From positions 1-57,264 of the IMG/VR virus record IMGVR_UViG_3300037248_000259: a DNA stretch of 57,264 nt; one strand, 5' to 3'. This stretch comes from a virus. Lineage: Duplodnaviria > Caudoviricetes. Positions 41,302 to 42,846 of the stretch are shown here, in pieces (positions within the stretch are counted from its first letter, which is position 1; every line of letters starts with the position of its first letter). Made by a program: the position numbers and the translations under genes. The notes under the pieces were generated by a model. It searched no databases, was not told the origin of the DNA, and saw only the letters and a program-made list of their open reading frames with translations.

Positions 41302-42321
41302 TTAAACCGCCGTCGACGTTTGCGCTTGACGCACGCCGCCTAACGCCAATGCGCCCGCGAAGTTGCCGACCGCCTGCGACAACTGCTGGTCCTGCTGCAA
41401 ACTCGTCTGCATCAACTGCGCGTAAATTTGATCCGAAAGCTGAGTCTGACTGAGCCCCGTCTGATAAAGGTTCATCGCTATATTGGCGCCCAGGCTCGCA
41501 ACCTGCGTCGAAACGTTCTGCAAGTCCTGCGACTCCGCACTCGACCCGCTCATGCCGCGCGTCGCATACTGCGACCTGATCGACGCCTTCGCCGCATCAG
41601 CCGCCGCGTCGAGTGACGACTGCAAACCAGACGGCAGAACGCCGGACTGCAGATAGCTCTCAAGCTGAGCGCCTTGCTGATTGGCCGCCGCCGCTTGCGA
41701 TTCGAGCGTGTTATAATTGGCCGGCTTCTGATTGCCCTTCAAAAGATCAAGCCCGAGCACGCCGGCTCCGAGCAGCGTCGAAGGCGAAGTCAACGTCGAG
41801 CCGATCCCGGACAAAAGCCCGCCGCTTCCCGCCGCACCGCCAGCCCCGCCCGCCGCGATTCCCGGAATGCTCTCTCCGGCCGTACCGGCCGCCGCCGCTG
41901 CGCCGGGAAGCGCCGTGAGATCGGGCGTCGCCGCCGCGCCGGCCGCCGCGGGGGCTGCGGCGCTGATTGCGCTCGCTCCCGTTCCGCCGGCCGCGCCTGC
42001 CGAGCCTGCAGCCGCCGCAGGAGCAGCCGCGCCACTGAGCAAGGACGACCCGGCCCCCAAAATGCCGCCGCCGAGCCCGCCGAGTAAAGCTCCGGTTCCT
42101 AATTTACCGCCGGTGACGGCGCTGGTCGCCGCGCCGAGCCCAGCCCCGAGCGCCGCATCGGTCAAGCCGCTACCGATCGTCCCGGCGATGCCGGCTGGAA
42201 TGGTCAAGCCAAGATCGGCCGCCCCGCCAGCCAGAGCGCCGCCGACGCCCGCGCCGATACCGCCCAAAGCTGAGCCGACGCCGCCGATCAAAGCTGGAAC
42301 GGCCGCTATAACTTCGGGCAC
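41302..42321 (-). CDS. Putative DNA pilot/ejection protein
   Basis: Gly/Ala-rich hydrophobic N-term, RGMSGSS motif, Q-rich C-term; GTG start. Confidence 0.7.
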   Translation of the reverse strand: MPEVIAAVPALIGGVGSALGGIGAGVGGALAGGAADLGLTIPAGIAGTIGSGLTDAALGAGLGAATSAVTGGKLGTGALLGGLGGGILGAGSSLLSGAAAPAAAAGSAGAAGGTGASAISAAAPAAAGAAATPDLTALPGAAAAAGTAGESIPGIAAGGAGGAAGSGGLLSGIGSTLTSPSTLLGAGVLGLDLLKGNQKPANYNTLESQAAAANQQGAQLESYLQSGVLPSGLQSSLDAAADAAKASIRSQYATRGMSGSSAESQDLQNVSTQVASLGANIAMNLYQTGLSQTQLSDQIYAQLMQTSLQQDQQLSQAVGNFAGALALGGVRQAQTSTAV

Positions 42322-42771
42322 TCAAAGCCTCCGAGAGTAGGCGGACGAGCTAAGCTCGTACCCTGCAGCGACAAGAAGTCGCATCATCTTTTGATCCTTC
42401 GGCGGAGCCGGGATGGTCAAAAGTATCACGCCCCTGTCGCGAAGACTACTCTCGCAGAATCGGATCATTCGAGAAGCGACGCGCGGCCGACGAGCTGTTT
42501 TGTCAAGCCAAAACCCATCGCCGCCCGCCCAAGGAATCGAATAGTGCATATGGTTCATGACGAGAAAAATAGCGTAGCCGCATAGTCGCCTGTCTTCCCT
42601 GGCGATTACGTTAAGCAAGGCCCCGACTTCATCAAGCTTCGCATAGGTCTCAAGATTCGGATTTAACTTAAATTGATTGTCGTAACGATTGACTTCTTTC
42701 TCATGCGCGAACGATGCGGCGAACATTTCTTCGCCGCACGCCGCCCATCTTTCAACGGAAAAAATAATCAC
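42322..42771 (-). CDS. GNAT-fold virion-associated acetyltransferase-like protein
   Basis: IAREDRRLCGY..DGFWLDKTARR..MIRFCESSLRDRGV; usual slot before ejection genes. Confidence 0.7.
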   Translation of the reverse strand: MIIFSVERWAACGEEMFAASFAHEKEVNRYDNQFKLNPNLETYAKLDEVGALLNVIAREDRRLCGYAIFLVMNHMHYSIPWAGGDGFWLDKTARRPRVASRMIRFCESSLRDRGVILLTIPAPPKDQKMMRLLVAAGYELSSSAYSRRL

Positions 42772-42846
42772 CGCACCTTACCATACCCCACCGAACCGCT
42801 GCCTACCGCACCGCGCCATAGCCCCGCGCACCCTGTCCATACCCAG

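What the first reader, a model, noticed from the sequence alone, without database searches (positions are those of the whole stretch)
42289..42837. Last tract decodes to the start of the pilot gene on the other flank (MPEALAAIPAL vs own MPEVIAAVPAL)
Seen: NN at 42783-42837 (+ strand) are at cc ga gc ct gc gc at cc gc ct. The pilot gene at 42321-42289 reads gt-g cc-c ga-a gt-t at-a gc-g gc-c gt-t cc-a gc-t tt-g, giving 17 of 22 matches, again in codon register and with conservative differences. The preceding NN (gc, tt) and the at also match if the own junction TGAGTG is read as the common TGATG overlap, so self differs by a 1-nt insertion. Caveat: the last few triplets of this tract are degenerate and a shifted register is also possible. 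This is a second independent decode supporting the NN-skip-one code, and it covers a translation start.
Basis: partly seen in the sequence, partly recalled or inferred. Interest (0 to 1): 0.92.

Follow-up and report, generated by a model that had tools for sequence, protein, structure and literature searches.

The report
VIPR guide RNA aimed at rival phages

Summary
The arithmetic holds: 11 pentamers at 42783-42837 give NN dinucleotides that match the first two bases of codons 1-11 of ORF 41302..42321(-) at 17 of 22 positions.

The tract is one of four GGY-NN pentamer arrays flanking a 202-aa gene (43142..43750, minus strand). That gene is a Vipr protein: a profile hits PDB 36pp 'SUSP1 Vipr protein' at E 6.6e-17, and the predicted fold is Cas7/Csm3-like.

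By the published criterion of at least 80% NN match:
- The phage's own site fails, at 17/24 and 18/26.
- The allele MPEALALIPAL in related metagenome contigs that lack the cassette passes, at 21/24 and 22/26.
- Shuffled guides reach this in 0 of 1000 to 25 of 1000 trials, depending on guide limits, and only skip 1 works.

Guides of sister loci show the same gap: 88-93% on other loci's vipr genes, 65-69% on their own.

No perfect target was found, and no expression data exist.

Verdict: observation confirmed, interpretation supported, a new member of a known kind. This scan has already noted VIPR loci in at least 18 other genomes.

The parts
42768..42837 (-). Last (3'-most) vrRNA repeat tract, t1. 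In RNA sense: GGTGC GCGGG GCTAT GGCGC GGTGC GGTAG GCAGC GGTTC GGTGG GGTAT GGTAA GGTGC GGTGA.
   Evidence: 10 of 13 scaffolds are GGY. A T-run follows, and the last unit overlaps the GTG of ORF 42322..42771.
42847..42867 (-). 21-nt element CCGGCTCAAAGAGCCCGAACC (hairpin GGCTC/GAGCC), copy 1. It lies 3' of tract t2 and is a candidate vrRNA tail.
   Evidence: exact second copy at 42971-42991; one search flagged only the second copy (42972-42992) as a terminator-like stem-loop; this copy was not flagged.
42858..42972 (-). vrRNA tract t2 (about 22-23 units). Target not found.
   Evidence: no hit of 20/24 or more in 637 kb held.
42971..42991 (-). 21-nt hairpin element, copy 2. It lies 3' of tract t3.
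42982..43141 (-). vrRNA tract t3 (29-31 units, possibly more than one guide). It starts right after the vipr stop codon. Target not found.
43142..43750 (-). vipr gene, 202 aa from ATG 43750. The mechanical ORF runs from TTG 43780.
43752..43880 (-). Conserved structured leader upstream of vipr. A long stem pairs CUUCUCCG-like letters with the Shine-Dalgarno GGAGGAGA.
   Evidence: six loci carry the motif, L003 and L004 being duplicates; five were aligned; 34 pairs, 6 with compensatory change. No Rfam match.
43922..43986 (-). Upstream vrRNA tract t4 (13 units). Its best match is a conserved motif near the 3' end of ORF 44023..44361.
   Evidence: self 20/26; best relative L049 20/26; none reaches 80%.
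43998..44026 (-). Promoter-like site TTGACA-17-TATGGT with TG, just upstream of t4.
   Evidence: This is a consensus match only.
42289..42327 (-). The window's own version of the t1 target site: the end of ORF 42322..42771, the TGAGTG junction and the first 11 codons of ORF 41302..42321. It falls below the published target threshold.
   Evidence: 17/22, 17/24 and 18/26, that is 69-77%.
41302..42321 (-). Function not established.
   Evidence: conserved order fibre-like 856 aa, 129 aa, GNAT, this gene, 342 aa, 1041-aa SLT protein.
42322..42771 (-). GNAT acetyltransferase gene. It is present in relatives without the cassette, so it is not part of the insert.
44059..44097 (-). The window's own near-match of t4, inside ORF 44023..44361 (QKTAWIFLHFLEH).

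Best explanation
Window 42772-44022 is a 1.25-kb VIPR cassette (Viral Interference Programmable Repeat). It lies between two genes of the virion operon.

It encodes a Vipr protein, which is a minimal Cas7-like RAMP, and four tracts of GGY-NN pentamers on the minus strand. These would be transcribed into vrRNAs.

The published mechanism, not tested here, is as follows:
- One Vipr protomer binds each pentamer.
- The protomers bury the GGY and present the NN pairs.
- The filament pairs with double-stranded DNA whose sequence reads NNx NNx..., skipping every third base. It forms an R-loop triplex and blocks transcription.

The tract in the finding is the last guide of the array. Its NN pairs are complementary to the sense strand across the GNAT-stop/TGATG junction and the first 10-11 codons of the Gly/Ala-rich virion gene, as that site is spelled in related phages that lack the cassette. 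The skipped base falls on the wobble position.

The phage's own copy differs at five read positions. It also carries one extra base at the junction (TGAGTG), which breaks the register. This puts it below the match level of natural targets.

Inferred function: in a mixed infection, the guide silences the virion operon of close, cassette-less relatives while sparing its own genome.

Shown here: the protein family, the arrays, the insertion, and the self versus non-self match levels with their controls. Taken from the preprints: the binding mechanism and the silencing. Inferred: that this guide is expressed, is loaded, and acts on these relatives.
For: Protein
- phrog_4652, E 4.9e-16.
- 6919 homologues at E 1e-3 or better.
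- A profile of 61 sequences hits PDB 36pp_D 'SUSP1 Vipr protein' at E 6.6e-17, over residues 5-188 of 202.
- The positions aligned to the GGY-binding residues named in the structure preprint (H17, R138, D177, W178, R179) are H, R-P and D-F-R in the window's protein.
- AlphaFold2 model with pLDDT 93.4. The top Foldseek PDB hits are Csm3/Cas7 chains, probability 1.00, E 5e-7.

Arrays
- The period-5 signal is the strongest in the window.
- Only four tracts occur on the + strand of the 57 kb (the tract finder was not run on the reverse complement), and all abut the gene.
- 32 of 33 IMG/VR loci with a homologue, and phage DSL-LC04, have such arrays beside the gene.

Insertion
- In 8 of the 37 related loci (L036-L072) that carry both genes, the 129-aa gene abuts the GNAT gene within 0-16 nt, or 275 nt in L057 and L058; other loci have larger gaps or no GNAT hit.
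- 0 of 37 have a vipr hit, and there are no real arrays in 305,531 bases.

Target
- Relatives L056-L058 score 19/22, 21/24 (88%) and 22/26 (85%).
- Self scores 17/22, 17/24 and 18/26.
- This is the only hit of 20/24 or more for any guide of the window in 637 kb of held DNA.
- Shuffled-guide null: 0 to 25 of 1000.
- Skip 0, 2 and 3 give 17/24, no better than shuffles; skip 1 gives 21/24.
- Protein alleles MPEALAALPAL and MPEALALIPAL exist in relatives.

Clade-wide check
- 955 twelve-unit windows from 57 tracts of 26 other loci give 40 hits of 21/24 or more. Twenty shuffles give a mean of 0.2.
- In the guides I followed up, the hits lie in vipr genes of other loci at 88-93%, with 65-75% on the guide's own vipr; one listed hit (the L023 guide on L055) lies elsewhere. 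This is the same gap as here.

Published thresholds: at least 80% NN match for natural targets, and no self hit at 80% or more (10.64898/2026.04.26.720920, Methods section read).
Against: - No perfect or near-perfect target was found. There were 0 exact matches for three NN patterns, two scanned in IMG/VR and one in the genome collection. The best DNA allele has 3 mismatches in 24 and comes from three near-identical short contigs, so it counts as one independent allele.
- The P value depends on where the guide is taken to end (0/1000 to 25/1000).
- The guide is rich in GC units, and the target gene is Ala-rich.
- t1 lacks the 21-nt hairpin that follows t2 and t3.
- 3 of its 13 scaffolds are GCN rather than GGY.
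- Its last unit overlaps the start codon of the next gene.
- There is no vap accessory gene in the insert.
- There is no evidence of expression.
- How many mismatches this Vipr clade tolerates is unknown.
- L056-L058 were retrieved with a peptide pattern that includes the N-terminus. That pattern allowed both the self residues and the decoded residues.
Confidence: 0.7

Rival explanations
1. Chance resemblance. The tract is a real vrRNA, but its true target lies elsewhere (another phage, a satellite or a plasmid not in the collections). The 17/22 and 21/24 matches to the Ala-rich gene start would be coincidence.
For: - In the window alone the test is only suggestive (P about 0.017 for two near places).
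- Two further hits of 17/22 lie far away, at 1675 and 2419.
- 26 other VIPR loci show no excess of matches to their own flanks: 10 places against 7.15 expected, P 0.2.
- No exact target was found.
- The guide has five GC units, which suit Ala codons.
- Antisense 17/22 hits to Ala-rich starts occur in five relatives.
Against: - The relatives' allele improves on self at four of the five mismatched positions.
- It reaches 88%, beyond 1000 shuffles for the 12-unit guide.
- It is in codon register, works only with skip 1, and is the single best hit in 637 kb.
- The lack of flank matches in other loci is what the published absence of self-targeting predicts.
Confidence: 0.15
2. Decayed guide. The tract descends from a guide once aimed at this gene start but is no longer functional, because it has no tail hairpin, has degenerate scaffolds, and is overlapped by the next gene's start.
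For: - 3 of 13 scaffolds are not GGY.
- The 21-nt element follows t3 and t2 but not t1.
- There is a register slip at 42833.
- There are 3 mismatches in 24 to the best allele.
Against: - The first preprint states that internal degeneracy of vrRNAs is frequent (Methods section 20, read).
- 12-13 units lies within the published 9-16.
- A T-run follows the tract.
- Guides of sister loci act at 88% by the same measure.
Confidence: 0.1
3. Self-regulation. The guide binds the phage's own gene start weakly (77% of the 11-unit core) to time or damp expression of the virion operon.
For: - The own site is among the best matches in the own genome for the 11-unit core.
- It lies 450 nt downstream in the same operon and covers a translation start.
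Against: - Over the full guide the own site scores 64-71% and is not the best site in the window. Position 40603-40606 scores 18/24 and 19/26.
- The junction indel breaks the register.
- The preprint found no self hit at 80% or more in three sets of systems (Methods section 27, read).
- Sister loci keep their own alleles at 65-69%.
Confidence: 0.05

Closest known systems
VIPR system of Escherichia phage SUSP1 (type II; Vipr structure PDB 36pp; bioRxiv 10.64898/2026.04.26.720920 and 10.64898/2026.04.26.720927)
   Same: - A small Vipr protein of about 200 aa, homologous by profile (E 6.6e-17), with the G-loop D-aromatic-R and thumb R-P conserved.
- GGY-NN pentamer arrays, one upstream and several downstream of vipr.
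- A guide of 12-13 units.
- The 1-nt skip rule, with the skipped base on the wobble position.
- Non-self matches above 80% and self matches below it.
   Different: - Only remote sequence similarity (phmmer E 1e-4 over 70 residues).
- No vap gene in the insert.
- The tail is a simple 21-nt hairpin, where present, rather than the pseudoknot described.
- Two tracts of 23 and 29-31 units exceed 9-16.
- The inferred target is a virion gene of close relatives, not a satellite.
- The VIPR type (I-VII) could not be assigned, because the classification data are in supplements that were closed.
SUSP1-family solo vrRNAs that target relatives' vipr genes and vrRNAs (bioRxiv 10.64898/2026.10.15.759431)
   Same: - Guides aimed at close relatives, with self-match scores lower than non-self scores.
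- Wobble-aligned footprints, some on the early codons of a gene.
- An identity threshold of 0.8.
- In this clade I also see guides aimed at other loci's vipr genes.
   Different: - Here the guide sits in a complete cassette with vipr.
- Its target is a structural-operon gene next to the cassette's own insertion site.
Class 1 CRISPR backbone subunits (Cas7/Csm3 of type III-A and type VII)
   Same: Same RAMP fold: Foldseek probability 1.00, TM about 0.5. The protein oligomerises on a guide with periodic base flipping, according to the preprints.
   Different: - No CRISPR repeat-spacer array and no other cas genes.
- A period of 5 nt with 2 read bases, instead of 6 nt with 5 read bases.
- About 10-14% sequence identity.
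Free-standing homing endonucleases of T-even phages (recalled, not looked up here)
   Same: A selfish insert between conserved genes. Its recognition site lies in a neighbouring conserved gene of relatives that lack the insert, while the host genome's own allele is resistant.
   Different: No nuclease is encoded. The published VIPR action is transcriptional silencing, not cleavage. No gene conversion has been shown.

Membership tests
VIPR system | A Vipr protein homologous to the solved SUSP1 Vipr | tested here: met
   Profile A4 against PDB: 36pp_D at E 6.6e-17, residues 5-188 of 202 aligned. The single sequence gives E 1e-4.
VIPR system | Minimal RAMP fold (RRM core, G-loop, thumb) | tested here: met
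   AlphaFold2 pLDDT 93.4, pTM 0.85. The top Foldseek PDB hits are Csm3/Cas7 chains, probability 1.00, E 5e-7 to 3e-5. The individual sub-domains were not mapped by me.
VIPR system | GGY-binding residues (H17, R138, D177, W178, R179 of SUSP1 Vipr, as named in 10.64898/2026.04.26.720927) | tested here: met
   The aligned positions are H (LLFHAW), R-P (RVRPAM) and D-F-R (GVADFRP). Column conservation in 61 sequences: P146 is invariant; R143, R145, D186 and R188 are nearly invariant; the H and the F are not in either list. W is replaced by F.
VIPR system | Tandem GGY-NN (YNNGG) pentamer arrays next to vipr | tested here: met
   Four tracts of 10-29 units as called (13-31 as read by eye) occur on the + strand of the 57 kb, and all lie within 180 nt of the gene. 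The association holds in 32 of 33 IMG/VR loci and in phage DSL-LC04.
VIPR system | vrRNA of 9-16 repeats followed by a conserved 3' tail | tested here: inconclusive
   t1 (12-13 units) and t4 (13 units) fit. t2 (23) and t3 (29-31) are too long for one guide. An identical 21-nt hairpin follows t3 and t2 but not t1 or t4. Transcript ends are unknown.
VIPR system | Natural target under the 1-nt skip rule with at least 80% NN match, wobble-aligned | tested here: met
   t1 against L056-L058 scores 21/24 and 22/26, in codon register, and only with skip 1. Not met for t2, t3 and t4 in the 637 kb held.
VIPR system | No self-target at 80% or more | tested here: met
   No 12-unit window of any guide reaches 20/24 in the window. 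t1 on self scores 64-71%, and t4 on self scores 20/26, which is 77%. One 11-unit sub-window of t4 reaches 18/22.
VIPR system | Accessory vap gene beside vipr ('typically' present) | tested here: not met
   The 1.25-kb insert holds one gene only. The neighbouring GNAT gene is also present in relatives without the cassette.
VIPR system | vrRNAs expressed and bound by Vipr; DNA binding and silencing | not testable with these tools
   No RNA holder is listed among the public runs. A wet test is needed.
CRISPR-Cas (type III or other class 1) | Repeat-spacer array and a set of cas genes | tested here: not met
   There are no direct repeats with spacers, no other RAMP or cas genes in the flanks, and no PADLOC model hit.

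The most novel reading that the evidence does not exclude
The cassette behaves as a selfish, homing-like element without a nuclease. Its two outermost guides (t4 and t1) are aimed at cassette-less alleles of the conserved genes on either side of its own insertion site. In mixed infections, only genomes or recombinants that carry the linked resistant alleles, and hence the cassette, would express the virion operon. This would drive the cassette through a population of related phages by silencing-based marker exclusion.
Probability: 0.12. Interest if true: 0.7.

Novelty: new member of a known kind. Interest (0 to 1): 0.4.

Why it matters
The finding shows that the gapped NN-skip-one reading can be recovered from raw sequence, and that it holds in a soil-phage Vipr clade far from the two clades studied experimentally.

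It gives a concrete natural example in which a VIPR guide seems aimed at the translation-start region of a structural gene of close relatives, while the phage's own allele escapes. The escape comes from five changes at read positions plus a one-base register break.

In the same clade, guides also attack each other's vipr genes, including the window's own (23/26 from the L030 guide).

The kind of system, its code and the theme of inter-phage conflict are already in print as 2026 preprints. The value is therefore that of a well-documented new member with a testable target pair, not of a new mechanism.

Tried and rejected
Ideas rejected
- Before the family was identified I considered a TRAP-like ring protein binding GGU triplets, two-tetrad G-quadruplexes or R-loop-prone DNA, and a Rho-loading C-rich antisense RNA. 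I dropped all three once the protein proved to be a Vipr.

Searches that found nothing
- Rfam: no match at gathering thresholds over the whole window, and none at E up to 1 over 42700-44100.
- No tRNA or tmRNA.
- blastn of 42300-44100 against GenBank phages: no match.
- Single-protein scans of IMG/VR: the 129-aa protein gave no relative, and the 339-aa protein gave one.
- Exact NN-pattern scans found nothing: two patterns in IMG/VR and one in the genome collection.
- A back-translated pattern for the MPEALAALPAL allele found nothing in IMG/VR.
- The genome collection gave only one distant relative, L073, with a different N-terminus.

Tests that gave no support
- NN decodes of 26 other VIPR loci against their own 4-kb flanks showed no excess: 10 places against 7.15 expected, P 0.2. 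An earlier count was 17 hits against 7.3.
- For t4, no relative beats self (20/26), and the decoded W and Q are seen only in single distant relatives.

Public runs
- No RNA holder is listed.
- Contigs of a second soil run are identical on both sides but stop at the arrays.

Tools and material not available or not used
The DNA of P0121, P0126 and P0127 could therefore not be read.
- Supplements of the three preprints were closed. Their data S3 and S4 may already list this clade, its type or such targets.
- The family has 6919 homologues in one search, and I examined the flanks of only 35 loci.
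Full report
**1. The observation.**
Window 42783-42837 (+) is a run of 11 pentamers whose last three letters are mostly ACC. Their first two letters read AT CC GA GC CT GC GC AT CC GC CT. The minus-strand ORF 41302..42321 begins GTG CCC GAA GTT ATA GCG GCC GTT CCA GCT TTG. 17 of the 22 first and second codon letters agree, in codon register.

The five differences are a GTG against an ATG-type start, V/A, I/L, V/I, and a TTG against a CTN leucine.

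For this query, only two positions in the whole window on either strand reach 17: positions 42321 and 1675.

**2. What the tract belongs to.**
A period-5 signal dominates 42741-43071 and 43891-43941. These regions hold 40 of the 60 strongest 100-nt windows of the 57 kb. A simple caller finds only four constant-phase tracts on the + strand of the window (the reverse complement was not scanned), at 42768, 42858, 42982 and 43922.

On the minus strand, which is the coding strand of all neighbouring genes, the tracts read GGY-NN. They flank ORF 43142..43780, whose product is 202 aa counted from the ATG at 43750.

That protein has no Pfam family but belongs to phrog_4652. It has 6919 homologues at E 1e-3 or better.

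- In phage DSL-LC04, a homologue of 55.6% identity has a GGT-NN array directly upstream.
- Of 33 IMG/VR loci that encode a homologue, 32 have a period-5 array abutting the gene, and essentially nowhere else within 4 kb.
- None of these loci shares flanking genes with the window.

**3. Identification.**
A profile of 61 family members hits one solved structure, 36pp 'SUSP1 Vipr protein', at E 6.6e-17 over nearly its full length. The AlphaFold2 model is confident (pLDDT 93.4). Its best PDB matches are Csm3/Cas7 subunits of type III-A and type VII CRISPR complexes.

A literature search led to three 2026 preprints on VIPR systems.

- *10.64898/2026.04.26.720920.* I read the abstract, the Results, the Discussion, Methods sections 20, 26 and 27, and figure-legend passages.
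- *10.64898/2026.04.26.720927.* I read the abstract and the first part of the Results.
- *10.64898/2026.10.15.759431.* I read the abstract, sections 8 and 17, and passages of the discussion.

They report the following:
- vrRNAs consist of 9-16 YNNGG repeats with a 3' tail.
- One Vipr protomer binds per repeat, burying the GGY.
- Recognition is of double-stranded DNA that reads NN, skips one base, reads NN, and so on.
- The skipped base usually falls on the codon wobble position.
- Targets occur on either strand, with no PAM.
- The outcome is transcriptional silencing.
- Natural targets are taken at 80% NN match or more, and no self hit reaches 80%.

The aligned positions of the GGY-binding residues named in the structure paper are kept in the window's protein: H, R-P and D-F-R.

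**4. The cassette is an insertion.**
Relatives of the window phage keep the gene order: fibre-like protein, 129-aa protein, GNAT, Gly/Ala-rich protein, 342-aa protein, SLT protein.
- In 8 of the 37 loci L036-L072 that carry both genes, the 129-aa gene abuts the GNAT gene within 0-16 nt, or 275 nt in L057 and L058; other loci have larger gaps or no GNAT hit.
- 0 of 37 encode a Vipr.
- No real pentamer arrays occur in 305,531 bases.

The window therefore carries a 1.25-kb insert (44022 to 42772) with one gene, four tracts, a promoter-like site, a structured leader, and two copies of a 21-nt hairpin. There is no vap gene.

**5. Is this guide aimed at the gene start?**
Within the window alone the evidence is modest. 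The 41 sliding 11-unit queries give hits of 17/22 or more at four places. Two of these lie in the genes beside the insert, against 0.17 expected from order-shuffled guides. Two or more near places occurred in 1.7% of 300 shuffles.

The test on relatives is stronger.
- *Proteins.* Among 109 homologues of the Gly/Ala-rich protein, 6 start with MPE: MPEALAALPAL twice, MPEALALIPAL twice, MPEVLAAIPAI and MPEIFLAIPEI. All 6 are closer to the decoded peptide MPEALAAIPAL than to the window's own MPEVIAAVPAL.
- *Consensus.* The majority consensus of the window's protein and nine of its closest homologues that I selected begins with MPEALAAIPAL (it reads MPEALAAIPALL).
- *DNA.* DNA is available for one allele, in three near-identical metagenome contigs (L056-L058). 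It matches 19/22.
- *Well-formed guide.* Over the guide it scores 21/24 (88%), 22/26 (85%), 21/26 or 22/28, depending on the limits chosen. The own site scores 17/24 and 18/26, and is not even the best site in its own genome.
- *Shuffled guides.* Over the 305 kb of relatives, shuffles reach the observed value in 0, 2, 25 and 15 of 1000 trials for the four guide definitions.
- *Other skip rules.* Skip 0, 2 and 3 give 17/24, at or below the shuffle mean.
- *Uniqueness.* In all 637 kb held, this is the only hit of 20/24 or more for any guide of the window.

L057 and L058 show the cassette-less junction, and none of L056-L058 encodes a Vipr.

**6. Does the rule work in this clade?**
I took 955 twelve-unit windows from 57 tracts of 26 other loci and searched 584 kb with the arrays masked. 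This gave 40 hits of 21/24 or more, against a mean of 0.2 (maximum 2) in 20 shuffles. In the guides followed up, the hits fall in the vipr genes of other loci (one listed hit, the L023 guide on L055, does not).

| Guide from | Score on other loci's vipr | Score on own vipr |
|---|---|---|
| L016 | 26/28 in four loci, 25/28 in two | 19/28 |
| L017 | 23/26 | 17/26 |
| L030 | 23/26 in eight loci, including the window's own gene | 18/26 |

(All.)

This is the same non-self versus self gap as for the tract in the finding, and it matches the preprints' description of VIPR-against-VIPR targeting. It also explains why decodes of 26 loci against their own flanks show no excess (10 places against 7.15, P 0.2).

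**7. What remains open.**
- No perfect target was found.
- t1 has three GCN scaffolds, a register slip at its 5' side and no hairpin tail. Its last unit overlaps the GTG of the GNAT ORF.
- t2 and t3 are longer than single published guides, and their targets are unknown.
- t4 matches a conserved motif of the 129-aa gene at 20/26 on self and at most 20/26 in relatives. Its target is therefore unresolved.
- There is no RNA evidence.
- The name 'pilot' for the 339-aa protein is unsupported.

**8. Verdict.**
The feature is a vrRNA of a VIPR system, a kind published in 2026 and already noted by this scan in at least 18 other genomes. I rate it a new member of a known kind.

The one possibly new angle is that the outermost guides seem to point at cassette-less alleles of the genes flanking the cassette's own insertion site.

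Noticed in passing
window 43752-43880 (minus strand); also L003 2518-2650, L007 3280-3412, L016 3757-3889, L021 3761-3895: A conserved structured leader lies directly upstream of vipr in six loci that carry the motif (L003 and L004 are duplicates; five were aligned). RNAalifold gives 34 pairs, 6 of them with compensatory changes. A long stem pairs with the Shine-Dalgarno GGAGGAGA/GGGGGAGA, which suggests translational control of vipr. It has no Rfam match, and I did not see it mentioned in the parts of the preprints I read.
   Followed up: partly
window about 43535-43573 (minus strand), inside vipr: The window's own vipr gene is a predicted target (23/26 NN, offset +177 from the start) of a guide carried by the VIPR locus L030/L031. 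That guide matches its own vipr at only 18/26.
   Followed up: partly
window 43922-43986 against 44059-44097: The upstream guide t4 matches the conserved motif ...AWI.LH..EH of the adjacent 129-aa gene at 20/26 on self. Relatives reach 17-20/26, and none reaches 80%. Several of the decoded residues that differ from self (E, Y, W, Q) occur in one or another relative, but never together.
   Followed up: partly
window 42858-43141: Tracts t2 (23 units) and t3 (29-31 units) are longer than the published 9-16 units, and each ends in the same 21-nt hairpin. No target of 20/24 or more was found in 637 kb of held DNA.
   Followed up: partly
window 42768-42772 and ORF 42322..42771: The GTG start of the GNAT ORF lies inside the last GGTGA unit of the guide tract. 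The right edge of the insert therefore coincides with the start of the next gene. The first unit (TC) may not be a real guide position.
   Followed up: no
L001 4004-4621 (Phage DSL-LC04, OR003939.1): The Vipr homologue of this GenBank phage is annotated as 'helix-turn-helix transcriptional regulator'. The GGT-NN array upstream of it (about 3710-3830 of the locus) is not annotated.
   Followed up: no
L026 and L002 (Pseudomonas phage Medea1, 27.5% identity): Two loci encode a Vipr homologue without a detectable period-5 array within the DNA held. They may have dispersed or divergent repeat types, or be array-less.
   Followed up: no
window 17321-17443: A 30-nt tandem repeat (3.4 copies, 98% matches) lies inside the large ORF that carries the DNA polymerase A domain (16735..19614).
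   Followed up: no
L073 (contig of a MAG labelled uncultured Methylocapsa sp.): This is the only relative of the Gly/Ala-rich virion protein in the species-representative genome collection. It is a weak hint at the host range of this phage group. The window itself comes from soil metagenomes.
   Followed up: no
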